Positions 7,260-44,081 of a stretch of DNA of 64,000 bases are shown here, piece after piece. The notes under the pieces were generated by a model, which was not told the DNA's origin, ran no database searches, and was given only the letters and a program-made list of their open reading frames with translations. This DNA comes from a bacterium (GTDB taxonomy: Bacteria; UBP7; UBA6624; JBBIMK01). Numbering within the stretch: position 1 is the first letter of the stretch; every line of letters begins with the position of its first letter. The stretch is from the NCBI GenBank assembly GCA_037444445.1, contig JBBIMK010000009.1:6-64005 (forward strand), read 5' to 3'. The translations under genes were made by a program, and so were the position numbers.

Positions 7260-7341
7260 ATGACAGGGAGCCGGAGCACTCAATATCAACAAGGATTTGC
7301 ACCGGGTGGATGCCTGACTGCATACTTTCCTATGAAAGATG

Positions 7342-7349
7342 GTATAATA
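7342..7349 (+). promoter_or_regulatory. Extended -10 promoter element (TGgTATAAT) upstream of hrcA
   Basis: tggtataat lies at 7341-7349, 16 nt upstream of the hrcA ATG (7365). No good -35 is present, consistent with an extended -10 promoter. Confidence 0.35.
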
Positions 7350-7364
7350 TACGGTGGAAGACGG

Positions 7365-8396
7365 ATGGAAGTGCTGACGGAACGTCAGAAAAGGATTTTA
7401 ACCACGATAGTAGAGAATTATTTTGTTCATGCGAAGCCCGTGGCTTCTACCCCGCTGGCAGAATCCGGGGCTTTTCCTTACAGTTCCCCCACGATTCGCA
7501 ACGATATGCTGAAACTGGAGAAAATGGGATATCTCGTGAAACTCCACGCATCCAGCGGGCGAATCCCTTCGGAAAAAGCCTACCGGCTGTATGTGGAGAA
7601 CCTGTTGCTATTCCCCCCCAGAGTTGTTTTTCCAGGCGTTCAGCGGCTGGCTCGGAAGTGGAAAAAAGTGGAGTCGGAACTGAGAACATTCCTGACGGAA
7701 GCATTGAACACCCTTGCTCAGGAGGCTTCAGCGGTTGCCTTTGCCTCTCTTCCTCTTCTGGACTCGGAAGAAATCCAATTCCTGCGGATTACACCCTTTG
7801 AGAGCACCCAGATTTTAGTGTCGCTGAGAGGCGCTTCTGGATGGCAAGAAACTCGCCTGCTATATCTCCCCGAATCGGTTCAGGAGTTCCGCTGGGAAGA
7901 GATTTCTTCGGAACTGACGGATTGGCTGAAAGGACGTCGGATTTCTACGATTACTCCCTCTTTCCTGAATCGGATGTTTTCAAATGTGAAAGAGAAAGTT
8001 CTTCTGAAGGCGGTGTTATCGTCTTTTTTCTACAGCCTTCAAAGTTCCGAGCGTTTCTACCACGAGGGGCTCTGGTATCTTCCTGCCCAGCCGGAGTTTC
8101 AAGCCTCACCGGAGAAGGTGGCAAAACTGCTACGGCTGTTGGAGGAGCCAGGGGACCTGATAGATATTCTGGTGGGGATGGAAGAAAAAATCGGTGTGGT
8201 GTGGGAAAGCGCCCTTCGTTCCATAGGCCTGGAGGGGTGCGTGATTGTCAGCCAGATTTATTCTCCAGGCGGTCTTCGGGGGTTCGTGGGCGTTGCCGGT
8301 CCCATCCGGCTGAATTATCCCCGGGTGCTTCCCCTTTTACAATCCCTTTCCACCACATTGGCTCATCATTTTCACTCCATGCTCATCTCCGAATGA
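7365..8396 (+). CDS. hrcA: Heat-inducible transcription repressor HrcA
   Basis: N-terminal winged-helix MEVLTERQKRILTTIVENYF...PVASTPLAE and overall HrcA architecture. The internal ATG at 7365 was chosen over the table start (7260) because HrcA homology begins there. A CIRCE operator is present in front of groES in the same window. Confidence 0.85.
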   Translation: MEVLTERQKRILTTIVENYFVHAKPVASTPLAESGAFPYSSPTIRNDMLKLEKMGYLVKLHASSGRIPSEKAYRLYVENLLLFPPRVVFPGVQRLARKWKKVESELRTFLTEALNTLAQEASAVAFASLPLLDSEEIQFLRITPFESTQILVSLRGASGWQETRLLYLPESVQEFRWEEISSELTDWLKGRRISTITPSFLNRMFSNVKEKVLLKAVLSSFFYSLQSSERFYHEGLWYLPAQPEFQASPEKVAKLLRLLEEPGDLIDILVGMEEKIGVVWESALRSIGLEGCVIVSQIYSPGGLRGFVGVAGPIRLNYPRVLPLLQSLSTTLAHHFHSMLISE

Positions 8397-23965: not shown

Positions 23966-24497
23966 CCGGCATCCCTCCTTTCGTTCTTCGTCCATACTCA
24001 TTATAACAAATTGTGGATGAGCGTTCGCAGTAACCCGCCCGAGATTTTTCCTCACTCTATGAAATGAAACTTTATCCCGACCCACTCGTGATTCCTGAAA
24101 CCAGGTATGTCATTTTCTGATTATTCCTATTGTCTACTTCCTGAATTTCGTGGTTGAGGATATTCCTCACCTCCTTTCCATAAGAGGAATGGAAGAATAC
24201 GCACGAGGGATTTTACCTGACCATTTGACTTTGGAATAATTTTGTAGTCATATTATCGTGCTCATGCTATGAGATTTGATAAGGGAAAGAGGAAGCCTTT
24301 TATGACAATGAGGGGGCAGGGAGAAAGTGGTAGGGTGCCGGGTTTTATCTCCTCCTTATGCCTTTGCTTTTCTATATCTACCCCCCCCCGTATAATCGCC
24401 TTTTCAACCCTTTCTGCTGGCTCATCCCTAAAATTCCTCTCTTTTTGGGAACTTTCTGGCAAAAAAGGAAGTCCACTTTATCAGGAGGTGGTAAAAT

Positions 24498-26918: not shown

Positions 26919-27717
26919 TTCCGGGGACGAAAACAATGACCCCTTTCAATGCGACTCCACCTGGAGGTGGCAGCCCCGCCGATACCTCCTTGCTGACCGG
27001 AACAGCGACCAGAGAATAGATTACCTGTATTCCGTGGATTTACATTTTTCGGGGGCGGCGCTTCCCTCTTCAGGAGCCCCCTCTATTCTCATCGTTGTCA
27101 AATCCCGGATGCCGGATGGGAATAGGCAGGATGATGATGGAGATGGGATGATAGATGAACCCTATGACCGTTCCTTCACCCGGCACATTCGGATTCCTGC
27201 CAGTGAGTGGGCATCCCAGCGGCTGGTGCTCACCGTTCCTATCTATTCCCTCGTCGCACAGGACCCACCGCCGCCGGACCAGTTAGGGAGAATTCGTGTA
27301 TCGGTCAAAGGGGTGAGCATCCAGCCTTCTTGCTGGGAATATTTCCCCCTTCATTACGGGCAGGATGTGGCGGTGCCGCCCCGGCAGGGCGTTGACCCCG
27401 CCACCCCCTGCCCTTCCCCTCCCACCCGGGCCATACACCTCGGGGGTCCCAACGACCGGCTGTATAAAATCCTCACCTTACCTGACGGCGGTTATCTGGC
27501 GGTGGGCGGCACCTACACAATGGCAGGTGGAACCCCACCAGATATGTGGGTTTTCCGGCTGGGAAGCGATGGCAATGTTGTGTGGGCGAAAGCCTATGGA
27601 GACCCCCATATGGGCAACATTTATTTTGGCAAACAGGATAGCGCAACGACTGCCGCAATTATCCTTCAGGTTCCCTACAGACTCCAGCAAGCCTCTATAA
27701 TAGCCAGAAGCCAATAG
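26827..27717 (+). CDS. Probable frameshifted continuation of the S8 peptidase (Ca-binding repeat / beta-rich C-terminal domains), or a separate overlapping ORF
   Basis: Frame +1 relative to the peptidase. The first stop-free codon is at 26827, right after an in-frame TGA at 26824. It overlaps the peptidase ORF by about 90 nt and has no signal peptide of its own. It carries the same kind of acidic Ca-loop motifs (NDSGDENND, ADRNSDQRIDYL). Confidence 0.4.
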   Translation, partial: WRRCGMPLPASFPPENQPVARQHYIENVGNDSGDENNDPFQCDSTWRWQPRRYLLADRNSDQRIDYLYSVDLHFSGAALPSSGAPSILIVVKSRMPDGNRQDDDGDGMIDEPYDRSFTRHIRIPASEWASQRLVLTVPIYSLVAQDPPPPDQLGRIRVSVKGVSIQPSCWEYFPLHYGQDVAVPPRQGVDPATPCPSPPTRAIHLGGPNDRLYKILTLPDGGYLAVGGTYTMAGGTPPDMWVFRLGSDGNVVWAKAYGDPHMGNIYFGKQDSATTAAIILQVPYRLQQASIIARSQ

Positions 27718-27845
27718 CGATTGGCGAATGGCAGATTCAGAAACAGTGAGATTTTGCAGGCAACACAAGAGTGCAAACCGTCTCTGCACGCCCCTGCCTG
27801 ATATTCGTTTGATTCGTTGAATCCTGCGACCTTTGCTCCGAGCGA

Positions 27846-28451
27846 TTAAGGGTAATACTTGACCCGAACCCCTGCGAGGTAAGTGTCCACTATCGTTTTG
27901 GTTTTCAGGCTATTCGTCCGATAAACATAATATAACTGGTCTTTGATGTAAGGTTTAATACGCTCAAAAGTGAGTTCCGACGGCTTTAATCCGTAGGTCT
28001 TCATCAGAGTTTGGTTCCATACCTCTTTATTTTCCTCATAATATCTGCGAACCTCCTCATCCGTGGGCTCCAGCAGGGAACGAAAGAGAGCGTCTTTGAG
28101 CAATTGATTCCGGATATACTGGCGATAATCTTCGTCCGTTAAACCCCTTTCTTTCAGCCATTGCTGGTAGTGCTGGAGGTTCTGGAAGCGTTCCGAGATG
28201 TCTCGCGACAGGGCTTTATCCACCGTGGAATCCGAAACGCTGAAGCCCCGGGCGACCGCGGCGCGAACCAGGACAAAATCCTGCACATATTCGTCCAGAA
28301 ACCGCTGGAATGATGGGTCCTTTACCAGGTCCTCGGTTAGTATAGGAACCTCGTTAATCCACAGTATTGGACGGGCAGTGGGCCCACGGCACGAACCCCA
28401 TAAAACAAAAAAGGCTATGACCCCCAGCGGTTTCAAAACCCTCATTTTCAT
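27846..28451 (-). CDS. Periplasmic SurA-N-terminal-domain-like chaperone (no PPIase domain)
   Basis: Signal peptide, then a helical region resembling the SurA/PpiD N-terminal chaperone domain. Overlaps the upstream stop by 4 nt. Confidence 0.5.
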   Translation of the reverse strand: MKMRVLKPLGVIAFFVLWGSCRGPTARPILWINEVPILTEDLVKDPSFQRFLDEYVQDFVLVRAAVARGFSVSDSTVDKALSRDISERFQNLQHYQQWLKERGLTDEDYRQYIRNQLLKDALFRSLLEPTDEEVRRYYEENKEVWNQTLMKTYGLKPSELTFERIKPYIKDQLYYVYRTNSLKTKTIVDTYLAGVRVKYYP

Positions 28452-31279
28452 TTCTCCTCTCCCTCCTTAGAAATCGGGATAACCCCGGCATCCAGCCAGG
28501 GACTCCAGAAAAGTAAAAGACTGCCCCGCTCCATTGATGTCCCGCGATATGAAATTCTCATTCTTCTTTCCCCTTTTACTTCCTCCAGCCAGAGCACCAC
28601 CTCATTTCTCCCAATTTCCATGCCCTCCTCCGGGGTAAGACCTGTAATTCCATAAAATTCTACTCCTGTTGCATGGCGGATGTGAACACATAGAAAAGGG
28701 AGTGGCGCTCTTGGAACGAGGGAAAGGAAAAGAGAAGAGCCATTCACATCTGATTGAAATTCCGTTCTGACCTCCAGCAAAGAAGGAGAAAGGGAAGTGC
28801 AGGAGGCTGAGGTAGGCTTGCCCAGATGTCTATCGCGAAGGGCTTCCTCAGGAAACAGAGTGCACCGCACAGGAGGCTTTCCCTCTATCACGGGCTGAAC
28901 CACAGAGCGGAGATAATCACTCATAGGGAAATTCGCAGGAAGCAGTGGAAGAGGAGAAATTTCAGAGGCTTTCTTCAGGAGAAAATGGAATGGGAAAGCC
29001 GATGGAAGAATAGAGAAAGTTTTCATTCCAGGGGGTCGCAGAAGAGAAAAAACAGCGGTGGCAAACGGACTGTAAGCGGTAGGTTCTTCCGGCAGGAAGG
29101 CACCGGCTTTCGCTACCACGCCCTCATCCACTGCCTGCCCTTTCTCCTGCAGCGCTCTTAAAGCCAGTAGCGCCCATGCGGTGGCCTCTACATTTCCCTT
29201 CTTCATCGTTCGCAAAAAATGAAACCCCCCGTCCGACTGTTGAAACCGATAAAGCCAGCGGAGCAGGATAGAGTCGGAAAATTCCCTATCCGGGAGGAAG
29301 GAACGGGTGAGCAAATTCAGAAACGAAAAATCTTCAGAGCCTGCAGAAGCCGTAGAGACTTCCGCAATAGATTGAGAAAACAGGAGCGGTTTCCCTTCCA
29401 CTGAAAAGGCCCGGATGGTAATCGGCCAGGATGGGTCAACAGAATTCATCGGGAGAACCCTCTGGAATGAGGTTCTTTCGCCCTTCCGCAGGTCCACCCG
29501 CACCGGCACATCGCTACGAACCACCAGAGTGGGGTCTGAAACTGTGGAGGGTAAAAAATCCGCCTCCAGCCTTTTCTCCTGAGTATCAGCGATGGAAGAT
29601 AGGCGAACCTGAGTATAAATGCCCTCAGGAACCTGTAAAATTCGCGATGTGAATGCGTAAGAACCCCCCGCAGGCTCAATCAGGCTCAACCGATAATAGC
29701 CCGGCGAAGGTGGTAGCGAGATCCGTGTTTTCTCATCACCTGAAATCGGCTGAAGCAAAAATGCTGATGACAGTCCAGAGGATGAAAAGACAAAGGTGGA
29801 GTGCTTTTCCACTCTCAGGGTGGAAAGAGGAAGGGGAGGTGGAGTTCCCCCAAGGAACTCCGTCAGGCGGAAGGAAGGAGGAGTCAGTAAAAGCCATCCC
29901 TCTTCTACCTCCGGATGCTGAACCGTTAGCAGGGCTCCACCCAGAAGCACCTCCTCGGTCTGATAAGTCAAAGTCGGTGGCGGAATATTCGCCACCGGCA
30001 CGAAGGTCTGTTGAACCTGCAATCGGCCAGATTCCACCCATTCCTCACTCATCCAGAAGCCCGGTGCATAGGCTTCCGCAAGGGGCAGACGAACCTCCTG
30101 CCCCGGCTTGAAAATGCGAATGCCATCAGGCAAATAAAAATAAATCGTCTTGAAATCTGAAGGAGGCAAACTGTAAACCCCTCCGCTATTCAGGGAAGAA
30201 TCTTCCTCTCCGGTGAACTTCCAGAAATACTCCTCTCCATCTCCTTCAAGCCAGACAAAAGAATAGGGGCTGGATACAGTGGATAAGGGGGGTGCAAGAG
30301 TTATTTTCCCCGAAGTCCGGGAGTCAAAAATTCGGGTGGACGAAATCCATTCCTTTTCTCCATCTTTTATTCCATACACCGCAACCTGAAAAGGCCGGGG
30401 TGCACGGGGAAAGTAACTCAATCCCTCGCCGTCCGAGGTTAACGGTGGAAGTAGAAGAAATCGGGAGGGCTGGATGATTTCCACCCTGTAAGGCTCCCTC
30501 CCATACCCCTCCAGTTGCACTTCAATTTCTTCATCAAAAGGCTGGGGAAGGTGAAAAAACTGGAGTAAGGAAGAAACGGGAGAAAAGTAGAACAATCTCC
30601 GGGAAGAATCAAAAATCCTGAAAGAGCGGTGCTCTCCACCCCGCAGGAGTAAAGAAACTGCCCTCTCATCAACGGTATAGACCCCATCCGGAGAAACGCC
30701 CTCAGGAGCCGATGGAATTTCTATCGGAAGTTCATCTATGTCTTGCCCTTTCTGAACCCTGAGGATAGAGCCTGCGGGAACCATATCCAGTGAAACTTTT
30801 CCGCCTCCATCCGTTAGCCCGAATAGAAGTTTTTCCTGCTGGAAGAAGAGAGAAAAGGACACACTTCCCACCGGTTTTCCTGTTCTTCGCTCCACCACTT
30901 CCAGATAGAAATATCGCCCTGTTGGGTGGAGTATCATAGATAGGGAAGTAATCAAAAATGTCCGAACCGCTTCGCAGGCGCCGGATTGGAAAATTGTGCG
31001 ATAATATCCTCGTTCCAGGGGCTTCTTCAGCGGTCCCGGGAAGGGCCCGGAATAGAGAGACTCAAATCCTCCCTCATCCTCCAGAAATTCTCCCTCCCAT
31101 TTTTCTACTTGAATCGTGAACGGTGGAGGGCAGGGAGGTTCACCCAGGGAAATCGTTTCACCGGGTGAAAAACGCCAGAGAGATGAAGCAGGGGTGGAAA
31201 CAGAAGCCACAGAACCTGCCATTAGAACCGCTAACCACCAGAGTGGAATTCGTGAAATTGAAAATGGGAGGGGTGTCAA
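28448..31279 (-). CDS. Large secreted alpha-2-macroglobulin-like / prenyltransferase-squalene-oxidase-repeat (alpha/alpha-toroid) protein
   Basis: 943 aa with a signal peptide. N-terminal beta-rich modules. C-terminal region has the QxxDGGF repeat (LLRWLYRFQQSDGGFHFLRTMKKGNVEATAWALLALRA) characteristic of the A2M thioester domain and of terpenoid-cyclase-like toroids. No CxEQ thioester motif was found. Confidence 0.45.
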   Translation of the reverse strand: MTPLPFSISRIPLWWLAVLMAGSVASVSTPASSLWRFSPGETISLGEPPCPPPFTIQVEKWEGEFLEDEGGFESLYSGPFPGPLKKPLERGYYRTIFQSGACEAVRTFLITSLSMILHPTGRYFYLEVVERRTGKPVGSVSFSLFFQQEKLLFGLTDGGGKVSLDMVPAGSILRVQKGQDIDELPIEIPSAPEGVSPDGVYTVDERAVSLLLRGGEHRSFRIFDSSRRLFYFSPVSSLLQFFHLPQPFDEEIEVQLEGYGREPYRVEIIQPSRFLLLPPLTSDGEGLSYFPRAPRPFQVAVYGIKDGEKEWISSTRIFDSRTSGKITLAPPLSTVSSPYSFVWLEGDGEEYFWKFTGEEDSSLNSGGVYSLPPSDFKTIYFYLPDGIRIFKPGQEVRLPLAEAYAPGFWMSEEWVESGRLQVQQTFVPVANIPPPTLTYQTEEVLLGGALLTVQHPEVEEGWLLLTPPSFRLTEFLGGTPPPLPLSTLRVEKHSTFVFSSSGLSSAFLLQPISGDEKTRISLPPSPGYYRLSLIEPAGGSYAFTSRILQVPEGIYTQVRLSSIADTQEKRLEADFLPSTVSDPTLVVRSDVPVRVDLRKGERTSFQRVLPMNSVDPSWPITIRAFSVEGKPLLFSQSIAEVSTASAGSEDFSFLNLLTRSFLPDREFSDSILLRWLYRFQQSDGGFHFLRTMKKGNVEATAWALLALRALQEKGQAVDEGVVAKAGAFLPEEPTAYSPFATAVFSLLRPPGMKTFSILPSAFPFHFLLKKASEISPLPLLPANFPMSDYLRSVVQPVIEGKPPVRCTLFPEEALRDRHLGKPTSASCTSLSPSLLEVRTEFQSDVNGSSLFLSLVPRAPLPFLCVHIRHATGVEFYGITGLTPEEGMEIGRNEVVLWLEEVKGERRMRISYRGTSMERGSLLLFWSPWLDAGVIPISKEGEEK

Positions 31280-32457
31280 ATACTCCCGACCATGGCATCA
31301 TCCGGCCGGTCAAACGGATAGACTTCAATTTCCGTCTTTTTCGCTTCCCGCAGAACCTGAAGTTTTAACTTATCATCCGGTCCTAACTGTCGGATGTTCA
31401 GCGCCAGGTCTCGTGGACTTTTATACAGGATTTCCTCGGTCACCAATTGGCCAGCGGGGGATTGGCGCGTGAACTTGGCGCCCAGGATAATGTCACCCAC
31501 CCGAAGCCCACGCTTGGCCGCAGGTCCTTTGAGATCCACAGTATCCACGATAATTCCTGCATCCTTCTCTATCCATTCTTCAGGCATACCGGCGAAAATC
31601 CGAAGGAGTTTCGTGGTGGGTGAAGCGATGACCCCAAACCAGGGGTGATAGATTTTCCGTCCCGCAATTAAATCAAAAGCATACTGCCGAAGGTCATTGG
31701 AAGGGAATACAATGTTCAAATTCTGCACTTCCCGCACCAGTTCTGTGGGAATGATAGTGGATTGCTCCACTGCCAGGGCATTGATGCCCAGCACCTCACC
31801 TCGCATATTCGCCAGCGGTCCTCCCAGATTGTATAGGTAAAAGCGAGCATCCGTCTGAATCACCTTCGGAACGAAGTAATCCCAGTTCATGTAGTAATCC
31901 CGAACGGAACTAATGACACCCACGGATGCGGCTACCGTTTCCCCCAGCGGATATCCGAGAGCCAGCACGGTTTCTCCCGCTTGAACTGCGGAGGAATCTC
32001 CGAAGGTAACAGCGGGGAAAGGACCCGGGCCCAGAATCTGGATGATGGCGAGGTTATTCCAGCGGTCATAATTCGCCAGACGGGCGGGCAGAATCCGCCC
32101 GTCGTGGAGGCGAACCTGCATTTCCTTCGCCCCCTTCACCTGTGTATACAGCGTAACCGCATACCCCTCGGGTGATACGATGAATCCTGAAGTTCCACCC
32201 TGGGCTATCAGACGCTGGAAGGAGCGACGAAACACGGGCGACTGATATAATGTCGTCACCACTTCCACAGACACCACCGCCGGCGCTACCTTCTCCACTG
32301 CTTCCACGAAGGCAAAACTTCCAGGGTCAAACACATAGGTGGGAGTCATTGCAGAGCAAAAAAGCAACAGGCTTACTCCCACCACCCAGAAGATGGAACT
32401 CTTCTTCCCCCGGCTATCCATCTTTTCACCCCTTTCCCGCCATTGGCTCCCAGCCAT
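31276..32457 (-). CDS. HtrA/DegP-family pseudo-protease with PDZ domain (catalytic triad replaced)
   Basis: Trypsin-fold + PDZ architecture. The His box reads VTLYTQV (no His). The Asp box reads NNLAIIQI (Asp to Asn). The Ser box reads YNLGGPL instead of GNSGGPL (Ser to Leu). Confidence 0.7.
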   Translation of the reverse strand: MAGSQWRERGEKMDSRGKKSSIFWVVGVSLLLFCSAMTPTYVFDPGSFAFVEAVEKVAPAVVSVEVVTTLYQSPVFRRSFQRLIAQGGTSGFIVSPEGYAVTLYTQVKGAKEMQVRLHDGRILPARLANYDRWNNLAIIQILGPGPFPAVTFGDSSAVQAGETVLALGYPLGETVAASVGVISSVRDYYMNWDYFVPKVIQTDARFYLYNLGGPLANMRGEVLGINALAVEQSTIIPTELVREVQNLNIVFPSNDLRQYAFDLIAGRKIYHPWFGVIASPTTKLLRIFAGMPEEWIEKDAGIIVDTVDLKGPAAKRGLRVGDIILGAKFTRQSPAGQLVTEEILYKSPRDLALNIRQLGPDDKLKLQVLREAKKTEIEVYPFDRPDDAMVGSI

Positions 32458-32466
32458 TTCTTTGCC

Positions 32467-33669
32467 TCAAACGGTTCCCCCGGCGCCCGCAGGGGGCTGG
32501 GGCTGCTCTTCTATCCGCAAAGTCACCAGTCGGAACACACCGCCCCGCCGAATGAAAAATTCCACCGAGTCCCCCACTGACATACTCCGAATCATCTTCC
32601 GAAGTTCAAAGGCATCTTTGTATACTTTCCCGTTAACGGAGTAAATCACATCCCCGGCGGCAAGCCCCGCCTGCTCCGCCGGCGAGCCCGGAAAAACCCC
32701 CTTGATTTTTACCGGATATTTCATTCCCTTGTAAAATTCATCTAATCTCAGAATCTCTTCCTTGATATAACGCTGAATATCCTGCTGTGGATTAAACCCC
32801 TGCTCTACACCGGGCCAGCCACCGATATAAGTAGGATTCCTCTCCTGAGGGGTCCAGAAGATGAAGAGCCCTGCCCACGGGTAAATCACCCGCCCGTATT
32901 TTAAGATGTCTTCCGCACTCTTCTTCGCATCGTTGATGGGGTAGAAAAGATTTTGTGCCTCCATCGCACTGGAACCCCAGGAGTTAATCCCAATCTGCTC
33001 GCCCCGGGCATTAAAAGTGGCTCCCCCGCTGTTACCGGCATTGATGGTGGCCGTGGATTGAATTATCCAGGTGAGTTCCTTACCATAGTCCGGATTATTG
33101 AAAACATCCTCCGCACTCATCAGCGGAAATGGATATTCAAAATCCTTCACAATACCCACCGTTACAGTGTTCACCAGCTGGAACTCTTTGAGCCGGAATC
33201 CCGGGTTGAATTGCTCAATCATAAATCCTAAGGAGGCATCGCCGGGAGAGCCAATGGCGAAAACCAGGTCATTTTTCTGAATCTTCTCAGAATCCGCCAG
33301 GTCTACATACGGGAAGACTCTGGGTTCCGGGGTGATGATTTTCACCAGGCCGAAATCCACCTTCACATTAGTGCCCACCACTTTCCCGGGAAGCACCTCC
33401 CCATTATCCAGAGTAATATCTACGAGTTTAGCGGAGGTGACCACATGCCAGTTGGTGTAGATATAGCCATCCGGCGAGACGATGGAGCCGCTTCCTCCAC
33501 CCCCCCCTGCTCCACCGGGGCTCCGATGTAACACCCGAACCATGGCAGGCTTCACTTTCGCCACCACCGGCGTCAGGTCCATCGTCGCTATCCCTTCCGC
33601 TCCCTGCTCCTCCGTTGCTTCCAGCGACAGCACCATAAAAGAAAGCAAAAGGATAGAAAGTTTTTTCAT
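32467..33669 (-). CDS. htrA: HtrA/DegP-family serine endoprotease with PDZ domain (catalytically intact)
   Basis: Signal peptide MKKLSILLLSF. His box YTNWHVV, Asp box VDFGLVKI, Ser box GNSGGATF, C-terminal PDZ. The ATG at 33669 overlaps the upstream stop (ATGA). Confidence 0.8.
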   Translation of the reverse strand: MKKLSILLLSFMVLSLEATEEQGAEGIATMDLTPVVAKVKPAMVRVLHRSPGGAGGGGGSGSIVSPDGYIYTNWHVVTSAKLVDITLDNGEVLPGKVVGTNVKVDFGLVKIITPEPRVFPYVDLADSEKIQKNDLVFAIGSPGDASLGFMIEQFNPGFRLKEFQLVNTVTVGIVKDFEYPFPLMSAEDVFNNPDYGKELTWIIQSTATINAGNSGGATFNARGEQIGINSWGSSAMEAQNLFYPINDAKKSAEDILKYGRVIYPWAGLFIFWTPQERNPTYIGGWPGVEQGFNPQQDIQRYIKEEILRLDEFYKGMKYPVKIKGVFPGSPAEQAGLAAGDVIYSVNGKVYKDAFELRKMIRSMSVGDSVEFFIRRGGVFRLVTLRIEEQPQPPAGAGGTV

Positions 33670-34706
33670 CTTTTCATCCCTCCTTTCCACTCGGCGATGG
33701 TCACATCTCGCTCAAGGATGCGGCCATCCCGCCAGATTTTCACTGAAAAAGTATCCCCGATATTCAACTGATTCACAGGAATCCAGAAGTCCTGAGGCAG
33801 GGTAAGAGATTTCCCCCCCAGTTCCAGCAGGAAATCGTTGGCACGAATCCCCGCTTTATCGGCTGGACTCCCCTCATCTACGAAAGTAACAAATAGTCCA
33901 TAATCATACGGGTATCCGTAGCGGGTTCGCTGGGTGTCATCCACCACCAGCAAAGATACCCCGGTCCAGGGGCGGGCGAATCGCCCCTTCTCCACTATCT
34001 CCTTCACCACTCTCCGCACCGTATTCACCGGAATGGCAAAGTGCAAGTATAATTCCTTATATTGCTGACGCAGGAAAGTAAGAACCCCCACCACTTCTCC
34101 TCGGAAATTCAAAAGAGGTCCCCCCTGCATTCCGTAGGAAATAGGGGCATCCGTTTGAATAAAGGTAGTCACTCCACCTTCCGCCCAGGGTCCCGCGGTG
34201 GGCAGTGCAGAAAGTATCCCGAAAGAAGGTGTGAACAGCCCATTTGAACTCACACCGACGGCAATCAGAGGCTCACCCACTCTCGGTGATTCGTTCTCGG
34301 GCAGGAAAGGAACCGCGGTCAGTTTCTCCGCCCGGATGCGAACCACTGCCACATCCGTCGGCTCATCCATTCCCAACAGCACCCCCTCATAACTTTTCCC
34401 ATCTGAAAGAATCACCTGGATATAACGGGCATACTTCAAGGTTTGAGCCGTCGTGAGTATATATCCCTTTTTGTCATCAAAAATGAATCCAGAGCCTACT
34501 TCCGTAAGGGTTGCGTCACCCAGAATCCCTCGCTTACGCTCTAAAAAACGAACCTTCACCTGCACCAGAGCCGGTAACACTCCGTTGGAAATATCATTCA
34601 TCCGCTGGGCATAAGGATGTATTTCCCGGGGCACGGTGGTGCCGAAAAGGAACACCATACAGACCCCCCCCACCAGTCCAGCCATTTTCAGCCTGAGTCC
34701 TTTCAC
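33666..34706 (-). CDS. HtrA/DegP-family pseudo-protease with PDZ domain (His and Ser replaced)
   Basis: The His box reads LTTAQTL (His to Gln). The Asp box PTDVAVVRI is retained. The Ser box reads GMQGGPL (Ser to Gln). Signal peptide and PDZ domain are present. Confidence 0.7.
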   Translation of the reverse strand: MKGLRLKMAGLVGGVCMVFLFGTTVPREIHPYAQRMNDISNGVLPALVQVKVRFLERKRGILGDATLTEVGSGFIFDDKKGYILTTAQTLKYARYIQVILSDGKSYEGVLLGMDEPTDVAVVRIRAEKLTAVPFLPENESPRVGEPLIAVGVSSNGLFTPSFGILSALPTAGPWAEGGVTTFIQTDAPISYGMQGGPLLNFRGEVVGVLTFLRQQYKELYLHFAIPVNTVRRVVKEIVEKGRFARPWTGVSLLVVDDTQRTRYGYPYDYGLFVTFVDEGSPADKAGIRANDFLLELGGKSLTLPQDFWIPVNQLNIGDTFSVKIWRDGRILERDVTIAEWKGGMKR

Positions 34707-34719
34707 CGCATTCCTCCTC

Positions 34720-35091
34720 TCATTCCAGTAATCCTGTAACTTCCTGTTTTCCGGAGACCTTCAAATTATTGATCACATCCCTCACCTTCTCCACACCTCG
34801 GGCAAGGGCCTCTGCTTTTTTCTTCTGCTCCTCCGTTTCCAGCTCCCCATCCAGGATGACCACCCGATTCTTCACCGTAATTTTCACATTTTTCAACTGA
34901 AGGGCAATATAGGGGTCAGAAGCGAGGCTCTCCAGCACAGTGGTCTGGATGGCCATATCAATGCTTTCCACCGCCATATGCTGGGGCGCCAGAGAAGTTC
35001 TCTCCCGCATCGTCCTCCCCTTCCCCTCACACGCCACTCCCATTCCTATCGCCAGCACCAGCGCCACAAGTACACTCCCTCTCATCGCCAT
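34720..35091 (-). CDS. BON-domain (OsmY-like) periplasmic protein
   Basis: 123 aa with a signal/lipobox-like N-terminus. BON-domain pattern: LKNVKITVKNRVVILDGELETEEQKKKAEALARGVEKVRDVINNLKV. Confidence 0.7.
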   Translation of the reverse strand: MAMRGSVLVALVLAIGMGVACEGKGRTMRERTSLAPQHMAVESIDMAIQTTVLESLASDPYIALQLKNVKITVKNRVVILDGELETEEQKKKAEALARGVEKVRDVINNLKVSGKQEVTGLLE

Positions 35092-35151
35092 TGTTCATTT
35101 TACCACATCTTTTCTAAAAACTGCAAGTCAACTGCTCCTTCTCCGACTCCA

Positions 35152-36492
35152 TCAGACGGAAAGCCCCCGCAAAAGGCTTCGGTCAGGGGTAAACGCCGAG
35201 GCCGCCTGGGCTGCATAATTCTGCACCAGGTAATATCCCACCCCTCCCACCACCAGCGCAATGAACACCACAGAAATCAGCAAGGCTCCCACGGCATTCC
35301 CCCGTCGCATATGCCCGAATTCCGCCAGGGCCACGATGGTCAAATACAGCCCCCACAGAAATAGAATTCCTGCAAGCCCATACAGGACAGCGGAGCCCGA
35401 AAGAAATGCCATGTCCCCCGCATATCCAGAGAGAAAAAAAGGCACAAACAGGAAGGATGACCCCTTCCAGACCCAGGGAAAGGTGGTATATTGTCGGAGT
35501 ATCACCAGAGCGAGGAAGAAACTCACGGAGTAGACCAGCCAGAGAGCCAGAACAAGGAAAGGAATGAGGTAAGGCCCATAAGTGAGCATTTGCTCATACG
35601 GCTGGAGAGCACGGCGCCGAACATCATACAGAAGCGCCTGCCTCATATCCTCATCCTTCGTCATCTGGTTAATGGCTGACACAGATTGTATCTGAGCCTG
35701 AGTCATAACCATCTGGTCAAAGTTTGCCATCAAATTGTCCGCATTTTGAAACATTCTTGCCGAGGTCAGAGAGCCCGTAAGCAGGACGATAAACAGGGGG
35801 TAAAGGAAAGTGGCTCCTCGGGCGGTGTCCCGGAAAACATCCCCGGGTGCTACCACCAGCCGATAAAGGTCCACCCAGAAATCTTTCCACAAAAAAATCA
35901 AAATAATCAACGCCAGAAGAACCATAGAGAAAGCACCCATATTCCGTCCCGTGACCGTCCAGAATGGGGTTGCCCAGACCAAACGGTAGTTCCCGGTGAA
36001 TTTCAGCGTCCGAAAAATTTGGTCCACTCCTTTAACATCGGATGAGAACTCTGCCGCCGGCGCCTCATACCGGAAGAGATAATCCTTCAGAACCGTTGGA
36101 ATCGCTGCCACATATATCCGCACTGAAGCGCTCTCCTTCCGAGCCTCCAGGATTTTCACATACTGCCCATCCACCCGTAAAAGCCCTGCATCCGAAACCT
36201 TGAACCCCTCCTTTTCCAGTCCTTCCCGGAGAGCCTTCACTTTCCGGTCCGTTGCCTCCACAGGCCGGTCCAGGAGCTCTTCCTCGGTGGTAATGGTCAA
36301 AGTGGCTTTTCCAGAGAATTTCAGCACGAGAGTTCCCTTCTCCTCGGTAACGGAGAGGGAGGAAGGGTGACGAAAAAAAAGCCCCCATTCTGTGTTGTAA
36401 TAAGGGGTCGTGCCAAAATTCTGCAATACCGTGCACCCGGACAGCACTCCCACAAAAGATAACAAAATCCAACCTCTCCTCTTCGCCATCAC
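35152..36492 (-). CDS. Lipoprotein with periplasmic domain and C-terminal multi-TM (Yip1-like) domain, function unknown
   Basis: Lipobox LSGC, then about 180 aa that are predicted soluble, then 5 or more hydrophobic helices. Confidence 0.45.
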   Translation of the reverse strand: MMAKRRGWILLSFVGVLSGCTVLQNFGTTPYYNTEWGLFFRHPSSLSVTEEKGTLVLKFSGKATLTITTEEELLDRPVEATDRKVKALREGLEKEGFKVSDAGLLRVDGQYVKILEARKESASVRIYVAAIPTVLKDYLFRYEAPAAEFSSDVKGVDQIFRTLKFTGNYRLVWATPFWTVTGRNMGAFSMVLLALIILIFLWKDFWVDLYRLVVAPGDVFRDTARGATFLYPLFIVLLTGSLTSARMFQNADNLMANFDQMVMTQAQIQSVSAINQMTKDEDMRQALLYDVRRRALQPYEQMLTYGPYLIPFLVLALWLVYSVSFFLALVILRQYTTFPWVWKGSSFLFVPFFLSGYAGDMAFLSGSAVLYGLAGILFLWGLYLTIVALAEFGHMRRGNAVGALLISVVFIALVVGGVGYYLVQNYAAQAASAFTPDRSLLRGLSV

Positions 36493-36640
36493 TGATGAAA
36501 GTGTATGACGAAATCACAAAAAAATCAAGGGATTCCTGATTTCCACCTCAGAGGATGTTACAGGATGCCAGTGTGGAGCCTTTCCCCTCTTGGCGGGGCG
36601 GAGATAGAATCCCCCCTGAATGTATCACCGAGGAATGCGG

Positions 36641-36666
36641 GTGGGCGAGCCGACAGGCTCGCCCAC
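36641..36666 (-). terminator. Strong stem-loop downstream of groEL (possible terminator/processing site; no U-tract)
   Basis: GTGGGCGAGCC gaca GGCTCGCCCAC: perfect 11-bp stem, 35 nt after the groEL stop. Confidence 0.3.
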
Positions 36667-36701
36667 GAAACCTGCCTCACCCCTCGGAAAGACAGCGGGT
36701 T

Positions 36702-38324
<1,623 letters not shown>

Positions 38325-38340
38325 TCATCCCTCCTTTTGC

Positions 38341-38631
38341 TTAATCTTCCACGATGGCGAGAATGTCATCTTCCCGGAGGATTAAGTATTCATCCCCCTT
38401 ATACCGAACCTCATTCCCGCCATATTTGGAAAACAGCACCTTCTGCCCTTTCTTCACTTCCATGGAGGCTCTCTGCCCATTCTCCAAAAGCCTTCCGGGT
38501 CCCACCGCAATCACCTCACCGAGGATGGGCTTATCCTTCGCTACATCCGGTAACACGATGCCGCCTTCACTGACGGCTTCCTTCTCCAGACGCTTCACCA
38601 CAACCCTGTCTCCTAACGGCTTTAACGCCAT
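38341..38631 (-). CDS. groS: Co-chaperonin GroES (Cpn10)
   Basis: 96 aa, LKPLGDRVVVKR...GEVIAVGPG...VKKGQKVLFSKYGG. Confidence 0.95.
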   Translation of the reverse strand: MALKPLGDRVVVKRLEKEAVSEGGIVLPDVAKDKPILGEVIAVGPGRLLENGQRASMEVKKGQKVLFSKYGGNEVRYKGDEYLILREDDILAIVED

Positions 38632-38667
38632 TCTCTCTACCTCCTGTTAAAATTTTATTTTCCATTT

Positions 38668-38694
38668 TAGCACTCTCGTGCCTTGACCGCTAAT
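38668..38694 (-). promoter_or_regulatory. CIRCE operator (HrcA binding site) upstream of groES
   Basis: On the gene strand it reads TTAGCGGTC-N9-GAGTGCTAA (consensus TTAGCACTC-N9-GAGTGCTAA). One arm is perfect, the other has 2 mismatches, with 9-nt spacing. A TATAAT-like -10 lies immediately upstream on the same strand. Confidence 0.6.
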
Positions 38695-38707
38695 AATTAT
38701 AGAAGAT

Positions 38708-39361
38708 TCAAAAACCCTGTGTCAAGTCCTTCCAGTTACCTCTGGTTTCCCACTCATATTCCAGAATTTGAATGGTTGCTCCTTCCTTCTGAAAGGTTTT
38801 CAGCAGGCGGAAGTTCCACTCGGCCGCCGCCAGCACCGGATTCCCCTGCCAGGGCTCCTGATAGGAAAATCCATAATGGGGATGATAGGTGAGCATCATC
38901 AACCGATACCCGGGGTATCGGATGGGACGAGGAACCACCAGCCCCAGCAAATCCACCACTTCGCAGTCGCAGTAATACCCTAAATACCCGATGTCTGTGG
39001 AAGAAACGGAAATGGGGGGCTGACCATTCTCCTTCAGCCACTCCGCCGCTTCCTTCTTCAATTCACTCTTCGTTTTGTGTTCCTGAAGTTCATCCCACAG
39101 CCCGGCGGAATGCTCCAGAAAAGACGGAAGCAAGGCAATGCCAGCCAAAACAAGCCCGAATCCAGCCGCTGGCTTCCATTTCCCCAGCCATTGCCATACT
39201 TTCCCTGTTCCGATACTCACCAGCAAAAGATAAATCGGATAGATGGACATAAAGTACCACGGCGCTATGAGAGCGTGGGTGATGGAGAAAAACACTAAAA
39301 AAGTCCAGTGCCACACCATCAGCAACAGCCCTTCATTTCTTCTCGCCACGATAGAATACAT
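38708..39361 (-). CDS. C-terminal fragment of a GT39/GT83 (PMT/ArnT-like) membrane glycosyltransferase
   Basis: Its frame is open upstream through the C8 tract at 39455-39462 and would join the N-terminal fragment after a 1-nt change in that tract. Confidence 0.55.
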   Translation of the reverse strand: MYSIVARRNEGLLLMVWHWTFLVFFSITHALIAPWYFMSIYPIYLLLVSIGTGKVWQWLGKWKPAAGFGLVLAGIALLPSFLEHSAGLWDELQEHKTKSELKKEAAEWLKENGQPPISVSSTDIGYLGYYCDCEVVDLLGLVVPRPIRYPGYRLMMLTYHPHYGFSYQEPWQGNPVLAAAEWNFRLLKTFQKEGATIQILEYEWETRGNWKDLTQGF

Positions 39362-39449: not shown

Positions 39450-40301
39450 TCATACCCCCCCCTGTGGGTGAATGAAATACTGGGACAGAAGCGAGGTATC
39501 TAAAGACCCCATCGCCCCCATCTTCAATCTCCAGATAACATCCGATAAGTCCTTTTTCGCAAGGAGAGGCTCCGGCAGGAGAACTCCATAATATCCATAA
39601 ATCAAAAGGGCAGTCAGAAATGAAAAAAGCCCCAAAAATAGCAGGGTTTTCATTCCCCTTTTCCAGTTTTGATAAAAAAGAAACAGGATTGCCGAGGCAT
39701 CGTAAAATATGGCTTCCGGTCGTGTGAGAACCATTGTCAGCATCACTAAAGACAGGTTGAAAGGCTCTGCCTTCTTCCTCATAAGAACGAGAAGCAGGAA
39801 AAACAAAAAGTGAAAAAGTGGCGTTTCCATCCCCGAGGCTTCAAAAATATGAAAGAAGGGATTCCAGGTGAAAAAAAGGAGGGCAATGGTGGCTGTGCCT
39901 CTTCCCCATTCTTCTTTCACAAAAAAATAGAGGAGGATACAGGTGAATAGAAAAAAAAGCCAGTTCAGGAGGTAAGCCGAAAGAATTCCTTCTACCCCGA
40001 TAGAAATCAGTCCAGCGTTCAACAGCATAAAAAGGGGTGCAGAGGTTCCGAAAATCCGCATCCCCGGATTGAACACCGCCCCCAGCCCATCCGCCAGGTT
40101 CCGGGCATATCGCAGGGTGATCAGAGCATCGTCCGTGGGATATTGAACCAGAACATACGCCAGCAAACGAAGAACCGCACCCGTAAGAATCAGCAGGATT
40201 GCCGTCTTCTCTGTTTTCCAGTATTTCTTTACCTGACGAGTGATTATTTTTCTGCCTGTGCAAATATAAGAAAAACCTGCTATGTGGAAGAGCACACCCA
40301 T
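39450..40301 (-). CDS. N-terminal fragment of a GT39/GT83 (PMT/ArnT-like) membrane glycosyltransferase
   Basis: Multi-TM protein. A first-loop motif YPTDDALITLRYARNLADGLG resembles the DE/DD catalytic loop of ArnT/PMT enzymes. The ORF ends ...HPQGGV* immediately after a G8 run on the coding strand. Confidence 0.55.
   Translation of the reverse strand: MGVLFHIAGFSYICTGRKIITRQVKKYWKTEKTAILLILTGAVLRLLAYVLVQYPTDDALITLRYARNLADGLGAVFNPGMRIFGTSAPLFMLLNAGLISIGVEGILSAYLLNWLFFLFTCILLYFFVKEEWGRGTATIALLFFTWNPFFHIFEASGMETPLFHFLFFLLLVLMRKKAEPFNLSLVMLTMVLTRPEAIFYDASAILFLFYQNWKRGMKTLLFLGLFSFLTALLIYGYYGVLLPEPLLAKKDLSDVIWRLKMGAMGSLDTSLLSQYFIHPQGGV
39455..39462. repeat. Homopolymeric G8/C8 tract at the junction of the two glycosyltransferase fragments
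   Basis: cccccccc at 39455-39462. Changing the tract to 7 or 10 fuses the two ORFs into one reading frame of about 530 aa. Confidence 0.8.
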
Positions 40302-41460: not shown

Positions 41461-41510
41461 TCCTCATCGCCCCCTTTGCGTTTCATCTTCATTTTAATTA
41501 TACTCTATTT

Positions 41511-41549
41511 ATAAAAATCAGGGGGGTCTCCTTCAGGAGGAGACCCCCC
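41511..41549 (-). terminator. Rho-independent terminator after the first pilin gene
   Basis: On the minus strand: GGGGGGTCTCC tcctgaa GGAGACCCCCC (11-bp GC stem) followed by TGATTTTTAT. Confidence 0.6.
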
Positions 41550-41589
41550 CATTATACGGGCGCCCCACAGAATTGGAAATGAACTTTCT

Positions 41590-42684: not shown

Positions 42685-42817
42685 AAAAACACCTCCTTTT
42701 TTCCGTCAGGGAGAAAAGGAAGCCCGCTTTTTCAGGGAGAACCCTGTGGGGCGCCCTTTCTTTTTTATCTCTCTTCAATGCAGGCTTCCCTTCCTCTCTG
42801 CACGGAATTTTTATTCC

Positions 42818-43987: not shown

Positions 43988-44081
43988 CGCGTATCACCTC
44001 CTTTCAGATTCTTGTTGTTCTCTTTCATTTTTTGGGTTCCTTCGTTTTACCGCCTTTCATCCTCGGATAACGAAGTAGCCT

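What the first reader, a model, noticed from the sequence alone, without database searches (positions are those of the whole stretch)
27846..38694. CIRCE-groESL is followed co-directionally by a tightly packed envelope-proteostasis module (lipoprotein - BON - HtrA x3 - A2M-like - SurA-N-like)
Nine minus-strand genes from groES to the SurA-like gene run with tiny gaps or 4-nt ATGA-type overlaps. Only one strong stem-loop (36641-36666, no U-tract) interrupts them. The only recognisable regulatory element is the CIRCE/HrcA operator in front of groES, and hrcA is encoded in the same window. This hints that a periplasmic quality-control or protease-trap module is slaved to the cytoplasmic heat-shock regulon. 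Canonical sigmaE/Cpx control would be the usual alternative. I do not recognise this as a described operon.
Basis: partly seen in the sequence, partly recalled or inferred. Interest (0 to 1): 0.75.

Follow-up and report, generated by a model that had tools for sequence, protein, structure and literature searches.

The report
groESL beside a separate envelope-protease cluster
An ordinary heat-shock chaperonin operon (groES-groEL, with its CIRCE operator) sits next to a separate, previously undescribed seven-gene cell-envelope cluster (one active and two inactive HtrA proteases, a small alpha-2-macroglobulin-like protein and three lipoproteins) that is found alone, without groESL, in more distant relatives.

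Summary
All nine minus-strand genes, the CIRCE operator, the hairpin at 36641-36666 and hrcA are present as described. The idea that the seven downstream genes are slaved to CIRCE/HrcA is not supported. The same seven genes occur in the same order in at least eight lineages of an unclassified, uncultured bacterial clade. groESL lies upstream only in the window and its close relative. In six other lineages the upstream gene is on the opposite strand, so the cluster needs its own promoter there. In the window, the groEL-to-cluster gap (209 nt) holds the second-strongest 3' hairpin in the window. It also holds a 30-35-nt block just before the first start codon that is significantly conserved with relatives, including one lacking groESL upstream. 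New points: two of the three HtrA paralogues are conserved pseudoproteases, and only the middle one keeps His-Asp-Ser. The 943-aa orphan resembles bacterial A2M at fold level but is short and lacks the thioester. The "lipoprotein" is a PsbP-like domain fused to a Yip1-like membrane domain. Read-through from groESL is not excluded. The CIRCE-groESL part is ordinary. The cluster is a new variant built from known parts.

The parts
38696..38725 (-). sigma-70-type promoter of groESL (TTGACA-18-TATAAT, 12/12)
   Evidence: Conserved in L001 and L014.
38667..38693 (-). CIRCE inverted repeat (HrcA operator), TTAGCGGTC-N9-GAGTGCTAA, 2 mismatches to consensus
   Evidence: only match in the window, 0.01 expected. 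Identical or nearly identical in L001 and L014.
38341..38631 (-). groES (96 aa)
   Evidence: Cpn10, NCBIfam GroES.
36702..38321 (-). groEL (539 aa)
   Evidence: TIGR02348 GroEL, 808 bits.
36641..36666 (-). 11-bp GC-rich hairpin after groEL, no U tract. Candidate terminator or 3'-end stabiliser of the groESL transcript.
   Evidence: dG -25.4 kcal/mol, second strongest 3' hairpin in the window. L001 has a different hairpin, GGGGGCGGGG/CCCCCGCCCC, at the same place.
36498..36533 (-). Conserved 5' block of the module, with promoter-like TTGATT (36528-36523)-17-TACACT (36505-36500). The -10 element ends 7 nt before the GTG-ATG start and there is no Shine-Dalgarno sequence.
   Evidence: alignment with L001 scores 22 and with L004 scores 18, each reached by 0/1000 shuffles. 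The match to consensus is weak at 8/12.
35152..36492 (-). 446-aa membrane protein: signal/lipobox (LSGC), PsbP/DcrB-like extracytoplasmic domain, then a Yip1-like multi-helix membrane domain
   Evidence: Yip1 at 21.6 bits, below the cut-off. Orthologues have recorded Yip1 hits. Model pLDDT 61.8. Foldseek matches PsbP family, E 3e-6, TMt up to 0.71. Lipobox Cys is present in most orthologues.
35097..35126 (-). Second promoter-like element, TTGCAG-18-TGgTAAAAT, 5 nt before the BON start codon
   Evidence: Conserved in L001 as TTGTAG-18-TGgTAGAAT, 5 nt before ATG. Function not shown.
34720..35091 (-). BON-domain lipoprotein (123 aa)
   Evidence: BON 54.8 bits. Conserved Cys followed by GRT..ERT in 8 lineages. 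It is the most conserved module protein, 65-68% identical to distant orthologues.
33666..34706 (-). HtrA-A: HtrA-family pseudoprotease with PDZ (His->Gln, Asp kept, Ser->Gln)
   Evidence: Alignment to DegQ 4ynn. The pattern is conserved in 8 lineages.
32467..33669 (-). HtrA-B: the only paralogue with an intact His-Asp-Ser triad (TNWHV, DFGL, GNSGG) plus PDZ. Its ATG at 33669 overlaps the HtrA-A stop (ATGA). A GTG at 33690 is an alternative start.
31276..32457 (-). HtrA-C: HtrA-family pseudoprotease with PDZ (His->Thr, Asp->Asn, Ser->Leu)
   Evidence: Alignment to MucD 8k2y. Conserved in 8 lineages. Orthologues score >=463 bits against <=171 bits for ordinary HtrAs.
28448..31279 (-). 943-aa secreted orphan protein: beta-sandwich array, short helical (alpha/alpha-toroid-like) region, C-terminal beta-sandwich. 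A2M-like fold with no CxEQ thioester.
27846..28451 (-). SurA-N-terminal-domain-like lipoprotein (201 aa), no parvulin domain
   Evidence: SurA_N_3 35.2 bits, above the 27.2 cut-off. Conserved lipobox-type Cys.
27757..27800 (.). Hairpin between the convergent SurA-like and 291-aa genes. Probable end of the module transcript.
   Evidence: dG -19.1 kcal/mol
7260..8396 (+). hrcA (378 aa), the presumed repressor acting on CIRCE
   Evidence: HrcA C-terminal domain, 94.7 bits. No CIRCE near it.

Best explanation
Two separate units lie side by side.

(1) A canonical groES-groEL operon. It has a consensus sigma-70 promoter, a CIRCE operator for the HrcA encoded 30 kb away, and a strong GC-rich hairpin after groEL.

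(2) An autonomous, ancestrally linked seven-gene envelope cluster. In gene order it encodes:
- a PsbP-like/Yip1-like membrane lipoprotein
- a BON lipoprotein
- a dead HtrA (A)
- an active HtrA (B)
- a dead HtrA (C)
- a short, thioester-less A2M-like protein
- a SurA-N-like lipoprotein

The cluster brings its own 5' regulatory region: a conserved promoter-like block ending 7 nt before a start codon that has no Shine-Dalgarno sequence. A second promoter-like element may lie before the BON gene. The adjacency to groESL is a recent rearrangement in this lineage. At most it adds some read-through.

Inferred mechanism (not shown): HtrA proteases are built from trimers. The three paralogues are always encoded 1:1:1 with overlapping or near-overlapping junctions. 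I therefore propose that A, B and C assemble into a hetero-oligomer, most simply an A-B-C trimer with a single active site. The dead subunits would serve as substrate-binding or regulatory partners through their PDZ domains. The complex would be tethered at the membrane by the three lipoproteins. The SurA-N-like protein would hold unfolded envelope proteins. The A2M-like protein would act as a non-covalent cage or scaffold for the protease or its substrates, as type II bacterial A2Ms do with their operon partners.

The confidence of 0.55 refers to the model of two units with the module's own promoter and at most minor read-through. I rate the hetero-oligomer mechanism itself at about 0.35.
For: Shown:
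- Gene identities.
- CIRCE and promoter.
- The same seven genes occur in the same order in the window, L001, L002, L004/5, L008/9, L010/11, L012 and L013. L006 is a partial copy.
- The upstream neighbour is on the opposite strand in six lineages. groESL is upstream only in the window and L001/L003 (same calls).
- Junctions within the module are -8 to +62 nt in all but one case (92 nt as called before the SurA-like gene in L013).
- Hairpins with unrelated sequences follow groEL in the window and L001. The window hairpin has dG -25.4 kcal/mol.
- The conserved 5' block aligns with L001 and with L004, each alignment score reached by 0/1000 shuffles.
- Distant lineages carry -10-like boxes close to the first gene's start: L002 TGtTATACT; L008 and L013 TTGATG/TTGAAA-16/17-GATAAT; L010 TATAAT.
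- The catalytic-residue pattern A (Q/S/M, D, Q), B (H, D, S), C (T/S/D/E, N, L/I/R) holds in all 8 lineages.
- The pseudoproteases are as conserved as the active paralogue: 44-58% for A and C against 52-55% for B.
- Lipobox-type cysteines are present.
- A2M-like fold.
- PsbP-like fold.

From the literature:
- The HtrA basic unit is a trimer, and degenerate protease domains can serve oligomerisation (PMC3194040).
- MamO is a repurposed, inactive HtrA-family protein acting with the protease MamE (PMC4794232).
- Type II bacterial A2M MagD lacks the thioester, traps a protease non-covalently and forms complexes with proteins of its own operon (PMC5764988).
Against: - The promoter-like element matches the sigma-70 consensus only 8/12, no better than shuffled sequence. 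The tool's own scan did not list it.
- The groEL hairpin has no U tract, while a canonical terminator with a T tract exists elsewhere in the window. Termination may therefore be leaky.
- groESL-module adjacency is kept in both sequenced members of this sub-lineage.
- There are no expression data.
- Hetero-oligomer formation, the role of the A2M-like protein and membrane tethering are all inference.
- Both structure models are of low to moderate confidence: pLDDT 54.5 and 61.8, from alignments of 6 and 3 sequences.
Confidence: 0.55

Rival explanations
1. Dual control. The module keeps its own promoter, but in this lineage the U-tract-less hairpin after groEL terminates only partly. HrcA derepression would then add a heat-shock boost to module expression by read-through.
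For: - The genes are co-directional, and the hairpin lacks a T tract.
- The adjacency is retained in the window and in L001/L003.
- The own promoter is weak by consensus.
- HtrA-type functions are classically heat-related (family name; established knowledge).
Against: - Strong hairpins are maintained in both genomes despite complete sequence turnover. This argues for selection for 3'-end formation.
- The linkage is absent in six other lineages.
- There are no expression data.
Confidence: 0.3
2. One reading: a single nine-gene CIRCE/HrcA-controlled operon, with the envelope module depending on the groES promoter.
For: - Nine co-directional genes.
- Only one consensus-grade promoter and one recognised operator in the region.
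- No canonical terminator in the gap.
Against: - The module stands alone behind divergent genes in six lineages.
- A conserved 5' block is shared with a lineage that lacks groESL upstream.
- The 209-nt gap contains a hairpin of dG -25.4 kcal/mol.
- The first module gene has no Shine-Dalgarno sequence, but a -10-like box lies 7 nt upstream. This fits a transcript starting there.
Confidence: 0.1
3. A different function: the cluster is mainly an anti-protease defence system, like bacterial A2M systems. The A2M-like protein would trap foreign proteases entering the periplasm, and the HtrAs would dispose of the trapped complexes.
For: - A2M-like fold hits.
- Type II A2Ms trap proteases without a thioester and work with operon partners (PMC5764988).
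Against: - The protein is about 900 aa against about 1500-1650 for ECAM or Salmonella A2M (target lengths).
- It matches no A2M Pfam model.
- The helical TED-like region is only about 170 residues and is poorly conserved in the more distant orthologues.
- No bait region could be identified.
- It is the least conserved module protein, at 25-33% identity.
Confidence: 0.15

Closest known systems
CIRCE/HrcA-regulated groESL operon (as in Bacillus subtilis and many other bacteria)
   Same: A sigma-70 promoter is followed by the inverted repeat TTAGCACTC-N9-GAGTGCTAA (here with 2 mismatches), then groES and groEL. hrcA is present in the genome.
   Different: Nothing unusual in the operon itself. hrcA is not next to grpE-dnaK and has no CIRCE of its own within the window.
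HtrA/DegP/DegQ/DegS periplasmic serine proteases (MEROPS S1C)
   Same: All three paralogues have a trypsin-like domain plus one PDZ and a signal sequence. Their best PDB matches are DegQ, DegP and MucD, E 1e-30 to 1e-37.
   Different: Only one paralogue keeps His-Asp-Ser. The other two have been catalytically dead throughout the clade. The three are always encoded together in the fixed order A-B-C.
Degenerate HtrA-family proteins working with an active partner: MamO with MamE (PMC4794232), and the degenerate protease domain of plant DEG7 (PMC3194040)
   Same: An inactive HtrA-type protease domain is retained under selection and used for a non-catalytic role next to an active HtrA.
   Different: The context is different (not magnetosome or chloroplast). 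There are two distinct dead paralogues plus one active one. NCBIfam MamO and MamE scores are far below their cut-offs.
Type II (thioester-less) bacterial alpha-2-macroglobulin in a multi-gene operon: MagD of the P. aeruginosa mag operon, YfaS type (PMC5764988)
   Same: A periplasmic A2M-fold protein without CxEQ, encoded in an operon with membrane-associated partners.
   Different: The protein here is roughly 60% of that size, matches no A2M sequence model and has a shortened helical domain. Its partners are HtrAs, BON and SurA-N-like proteins, none of which gave a Mag-related family match in the searches run.
SurA periplasmic chaperone; Treponema TDE1658 family
   Same: N-terminal SurA-type chaperone domain (SurA_N_3 35.2 bits; TDE1658_narrow 32 bits, far below its 340 cut-off).
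   Different: Only 201 aa, no parvulin PPIase domains, and lipoprotein-type N-terminus.
sigmaE/Cpx envelope-stress regulons of E. coli (degP, surA, and others)
   Same: The functional theme: protease plus chaperones for the envelope.
   Different: In E. coli the genes are scattered and controlled by an ECF sigma factor or a two-component system. Here they form one cluster, and no sigmaE-type promoter was found (best match 7/11, reached by 457/500 shuffles).

Membership tests
CIRCE/HrcA heat-shock operon (groESL) | Inverted repeat TTAGCACTC-N9-GAGTGCTAA between promoter and groES | tested here: met
   38667-38693, 2 mismatches, 0.01 expected; the promoter ends 2 nt upstream.
CIRCE/HrcA heat-shock operon (groESL) | hrcA gene present in the genome | tested here: met
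   7260-8396, HrcA C-terminal domain, 94.7 bits.
CIRCE/HrcA heat-shock operon (groESL) | Repression by HrcA and heat induction | not testable with these tools
   Needs expression or binding experiments.
Single transcription unit groES to the SurA-like gene | No terminator-like structure and no promoter between groEL and the next gene | tested here: not met
   There is a hairpin of dG -25.4 kcal/mol and a conserved promoter-like block. The function of either is not shown.
Single transcription unit groES to the SurA-like gene | Linkage of groESL to the module conserved across genomes that carry the module | tested here: not met
   Present in the window and in L001/L003 only. Absent in L002, L004/5, L008/9, L010/11, L012 and L013.
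HtrA/DegP family (S1C) | Trypsin-like domain followed by a PDZ domain | tested here: met
   for all three paralogues.
HtrA/DegP family (S1C) | Catalytic triad His-Asp-Ser (GNSGG) | tested here: not met
   Met for HtrA-B only. HtrA-A has Q/D/Q and HtrA-C has T/N/L. A and C are family members by fold and sequence, but not active proteases.
Alpha-2-macroglobulin family, type I | CxEQ thioester motif | tested here: not met
   No CxEQ in the 943-aa sequence (read directly).
Alpha-2-macroglobulin family (any type) | Match to A2M sequence models (MG, A2M, TED, receptor-binding domains) | tested here: not met
   No Pfam or NCBIfam hit even at E<=10, apart from Prenyltrans at E 0.08. The PDB profile search found nothing.
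Alpha-2-macroglobulin family (any type) | Fold: array of MG beta-sandwiches, alpha/alpha-toroid TED, C-terminal beta-sandwich | tested here: inconclusive
Type II bacterial A2M system (mag/yfaS operon) | Operon partners homologous to MagA/B/C/E/F | not tested
   No Mag sequences were available for comparison. The partners here have other identifiable families: BON, HtrA, SurA_N and Yip1.
SurA | N-terminal chaperone domain plus parvulin PPIase domain(s) | tested here: not met
   SurA_N_3 is met at 35.2 bits. There is no PPIase domain in the 201 aa, only a 17-residue Rotamase_2 fragment below its cut-off.
BON domain proteins (OsmY/DolP type) | BON domain | tested here: met
   54.8 bits against a cut-off of 27.
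Yip1 domain membrane proteins | Match to Pfam Yip1 above threshold | tested here: inconclusive
   The window protein scores 21.6 bits against a cut-off of 28.6. Orthologues P0005 and L012 carry a recorded Yip1 hit, and L013 a weak one.

The most novel reading that the evidence does not exclude
The seven-gene cluster encodes a new kind of envelope protease machine, confined to a deep, uncultured hot-spring lineage. It would be an obligate HtrA hetero-oligomer with one active and two permanently inactive subunits. It would work inside or alongside a miniature thioester-less A2M-like cage. It would be anchored by a PsbP/Yip1 membrane lipoprotein, a BON lipoprotein and a SurA-N-like lipoprotein. 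In this particular lineage it would additionally be placed under partial heat-shock (CIRCE/HrcA) control by read-through from groESL.
Probability: 0.25. Interest if true: 0.65.

Novelty: new variant of a known kind. Interest (0 to 1): 0.42.

Why it matters
The regulatory claim would have linked cytoplasmic and envelope proteostasis through one repressor. The comparative evidence says the linkage is a local accident of gene order, so that point is of low value.

The conserved cluster is of moderate interest for three reasons:
- It is a natural case of one active HtrA fixed together with two different dead paralogues. This could show how pseudoprotease subunits tune an HtrA oligomer.
- It pairs a protease with a minimal A2M-fold protein encoded in the same operon.
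- It comes from a lineage so poorly sampled that neither scan pattern set found it among 185,579 species-representative genomes.

Tried and rejected
- **Genome scans.** The species-representative genome collection was scanned with the 446-aa family and the HtrA-C family. Neither found a relative. The organism's phylum therefore stays unknown.
- **Taxonomy.** NCBI names two related MAGs only 'bacterium JZ-2024 1', filed under unclassified Bacteria. No paper mentions that name.
- **Metagenome scans.** These found nothing new.
- **Cluster look-up.** The exact-sequence look-up gave no names.
- **Contig look-up.** A look-up of the window's own contig via P0001 was not on record.
- **L014.** This groES-bearing relative ends 40 nt after groEL, so it says nothing about adjacency.
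- **Deeper alignment.** The afdb50 library was unavailable.
- **Rfam.** No RNA family was found in the 209-nt gap.
- **Promoter consensus scoring.** Scoring for sigma-70, sigmaE and sigma32 types was no better than shuffled sequence. No promoter claim rests on consensus strength, and a sigmaE-type promoter is rejected. The resemblance of CCCTTGAT-N13-CGTCATAC to the E. coli sigma32 consensus (9/13) was considered and not adopted, because 215/500 shuffles reach that score.
- **Leaderless transcription.** I considered a genome-wide habit of leaderless transcription as support. A few other genes show a TATAAT-like box 4-7 nt before the start. I did not test this statistically, so I use it only as a hint.

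Full report
**1. What is there**

Nine ORFs run on the minus strand from 38631 to 27846. Pfam and NCBIfam identify them as follows:
- groES (38631-38341) and groEL (38321-36702)
- a 446-aa protein (36492-35152) with only a sub-threshold Yip1 match
- a BON-domain protein (35091-34720)
- three Trypsin_2+PDZ HtrA-family proteins (34706-33666, 33669/33690-32467, 32457-31276)
- a 943-aa protein with no family hit (31279-28448)
- a 201-aa SurA_N_3 protein (28451-27846)

The junctions are 19, 209, 60, 13, -4, 9, -4 and -4 nt. Upstream of groES lies a 12/12 sigma-70 promoter (38725-38696). It is followed 2 nt later by a CIRCE repeat (38693-38667). CIRCE has 2 mismatches, is the only match in 64 kb, and 0.01 matches are expected by chance. 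hrcA is at 7260-8396 on the + strand. The hairpin reported at 36641-36666 is exactly there and has no T tract. The factual core of the finding therefore holds. The exceptions are that the groEL-to-next-gene gap is not tiny and that CIRCE is not the only candidate regulatory element.

**2. The seven downstream genes are an autonomous, conserved cluster**

The 943-aa protein has only two relatives in the 5.8-billion-protein index. It has five among 1.84 billion representatives. The 446-aa protein has three. I followed these relatives, and the orthologues of the third HtrA paralogue, back to their contigs. The same seven genes appear in the same order in:
- L001/L003 (about 80-90% identical)
- L002
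- L004/L005
- L008/L009
- L010/L011
- L012
- L013
- L006 (a partial copy)

Within the module the junctions are -8 to +62 nt in all but one case, a 92-nt gap as called in L013.

groES-groEL lies directly upstream only in the window and in L001/L003. In the other six lineages the upstream gene is on the opposite strand, so there the cluster must have its own promoter. Downstream neighbours also vary:
- enolase and pyruvate kinase, joined without a gap, in L002, L004 and L010
- a convergent gene in L008
- other genes in L012 and L013
- FBPase with its own promoter in L001

The unit is thus exactly these seven genes. The groESL adjacency is a derived feature of one sub-lineage.

**3. The groEL-to-module gap**

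In the window the 209-nt gap begins with the 11-bp GC hairpin. At dG -25.4 kcal/mol this is the second-strongest 3' hairpin among 23 gene ends examined. L001 has a gap of only 78 nt. It too begins with a strong hairpin, but of unrelated sequence (GGGGGCGGGG/CCCCCGCCCC). This suggests selection for a structure at the groEL 3' end.

The last 30-35 nt before the first module gene are conserved. The window aligns with L001 over 34 nt (score 22, 0/1000 shuffles reach it). It aligns with L004 over 28 columns (score 18, 0/1000), and L004 has no groESL upstream. The block reads as TTGATT-17-TACACT, ending 7 nt before a GTG-ATG start that has no Shine-Dalgarno sequence. That layout would fit a leaderless or near-leaderless transcript.

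A second promoter-like element, TTGCAG-18-TGgTAAAAT, lies 5 nt before the BON start. It is conserved in L001.

Three cautions apply. By match to consensus these elements are weak: 8/12 for the first, which is no better than shuffled sequence. The hairpin lacks the T tract that another terminator in the window has. There are no expression data. No sigmaE-type promoter is present; the best match is 7/11, reached by 457/500 shuffles. My reading is that the module is mainly transcribed from its own 5' region. Partial read-through from groESL is possible but unproven.

**4.

(a) Two of the three HtrA paralogues are dead.
- I aligned them with DegQ and MucD structures and across eight lineages.
- Paralogue A has His replaced by Gln, Ser or Met; Asp kept; and Ser replaced by Gln.
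- Paralogue B keeps His, Asp and Ser (TNWHV, DFGL, GNSGG) in every lineage.
- Paralogue C has His replaced by Thr, Ser, Asp or Glu; Asp replaced by Asn; and Ser replaced by Leu, Ile or Arg.
- The dead paralogues are about as conserved as the active one: 44-58% against 52-55% identity to distant orthologues.
- They are therefore maintained pseudoproteases, not decaying genes.

(b) The 'lipoprotein' is a polytopic membrane protein.
- It has a lipobox-type N-terminus (LSGC, with the Cys present in most orthologues).
- It has an extracytoplasmic domain whose model matches the PsbP/DcrB/LpqN fold (Foldseek E 3e-6, TM to target up to 0.71). The model confidence is only moderate (pLDDT 61.8).
- It has a Yip1-like helical membrane domain. 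The window protein is below the Pfam threshold, but orthologues have recorded hits.

(c) The BON and SurA-N-like proteins also carry conserved lipobox-type cysteines. The SurA-like protein has no PPIase domain.

**5. Is the 943-aa protein A2M-like?**

There is no support at the sequence level:
- no Pfam or NCBIfam hit
- nothing at E<=10 except a Prenyltrans alpha/alpha-toroid repeat at E 0.08
- nothing in a PDB profile search
- no CxEQ thioester (sequence)

A six-sequence AlphaFold model is poor overall (pLDDT 54.5, pTM 0.29). It shows a beta-sandwich array (35-610), a helical stretch of about 170 residues (653-820) and a C-terminal beta-sandwich.

The protein is a shortened, thioester-less, highly divergent relative. 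The nearest described kind is the type II bacterial A2M (MagD/YfaS). That protein lacks the thioester, traps a protease non-covalently and forms complexes with proteins of its own operon (PMC5764988). Membership is not established.

**6. How it most likely works**

Shown:
- Gene content, order and conservation.
- Envelope targeting signals.
- The pattern of one active and two dead HtrAs.

Inferred:
- HtrA proteases are built from trimers, and degenerate protease domains can serve assembly (PMC3194040).
- An inactive HtrA-family protein, MamO, acts with the active protease MamE (PMC4794232).
- The fixed A-B-C gene triplet with overlapping junctions therefore suggests a hetero-oligomer, most simply an A-B-C trimer with one active site.
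- This complex would be held at the membrane by the three lipoproteins.
- The SurA-N-like protein would hold unfolded clients.
- The A2M-like protein would act as a cage or scaffold.

I put about 0.55 on the model of two units with the module's own promoter and at most minor read-through. I put about 0.3 on dual control with meaningful read-through, and about 0.1 on a strict nine-gene CIRCE operon. The hetero-oligomer mechanism itself I rate at about 0.35.

**7. Context and limits**

- The organism is diderm: LptF/G, an LptB-like ABC ATPase and an SLH porin-like protein are in the window.
- Its relative L001 comes from the Chocolate Pots hot spring metagenome (PMC6137239).
- Related MAGs are filed only as 'bacterium JZ-2024 1', unclassified Bacteria.
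- Two scans of species-representative genomes found no relative. I could not place the lineage.

**8. Verdict**

The CIRCE-groESL part is already known and ordinary. The proposed slaving of the envelope module to HrcA is not supported by comparative evidence and remains untested experimentally. The seven-gene cluster is a real, conserved and apparently undescribed arrangement of known parts, so I class it as a new variant of a known kind. Its most interesting feature is the conserved trio of one active and two dead HtrAs next to a mini A2M-like protein.

Noticed in passing
window 40339-49568 (-): A type IV pilus-like cluster: PilB-like ATPase (600 aa), two PilT-like ATPases, PilC, and three unusually large (364-389 aa) proteins with an N-terminal prepilin methylation motif. 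The same cluster precedes groES in L001 and L014.
   Followed up: partly
window 38708-39361 and 39450-40301 (-): Two ORFs (217 and 283 aa) without any Pfam hit lie between the PilT-like gene and groES. They are absent in L001 and replaced by a single 403-aa gene in L014. This spot is variable.
   Followed up: partly
window 24498-27717 (+): An S8 subtilase (806 aa) and a 291-aa protein of unknown family lie between the module and the FBPase_3 gene. Both are absent in L001, where FBPase follows the module directly.
   Followed up: no
window 36493-36701 (-): The groEL-to-module gap is 209 nt here but 78 nt in L001. The extra ~130 nt folds unusually well (231-nt stretch, MFE -94 kcal/mol, z = -3.7) and matches no Rfam family.
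   Followed up: partly
window 7260-8396 (+): hrcA starts immediately after the stop of a SAM-methyltransferase gene. It is not adjacent to grpE/dnaK and has no CIRCE (<=3 mismatches) anywhere near it. Only the HrcA C-terminal domain scored in Pfam.
   Followed up: no
L002 9495-11923; L004 13158-16087; L010 14275-17201: In three lineages enolase and pyruvate kinase follow the SurA-like gene with junctions of 0 to -13 nt (46 nt before pyruvate kinase in L002). They look as if they belong to the same transcript as the envelope module.
   Followed up: no
window 3845, 16333, 35091, 36492 (gene starts): Several genes have a TATAAT-like box 4-7 nt before the start codon and no Shine-Dalgarno sequence. 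They often have a doubled start (GTGATG or ATGATG). This hints at leaderless mRNAs in this organism. It was not tested statistically.
   Followed up: partly
window 49605-54022 (-): A TgpA-like transglutaminase (807 aa), a DUF58 protein and a MoxR-type AAA ATPase form a co-directional cluster.
   Followed up: no
window 17773-19389 (+), 21256-22572 (-), 22865-24085 (-): An SLH-domain porin-like protein, a multihaem cytochrome c and an archaeal-type FBP aldolase/phosphatase (FBPase_3). These fit a diderm thermophile from an iron-rich spring. L001 is from Chocolate Pots hot spring.
   Followed up: partly
whole module, all loci: Neither the 446-aa family nor the HtrA-C family was found in the 185,579-species genome collection. 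NCBI files the related MAGs as unclassified Bacteria. The lineage appears to be very poorly sampled.
   Followed up: partly
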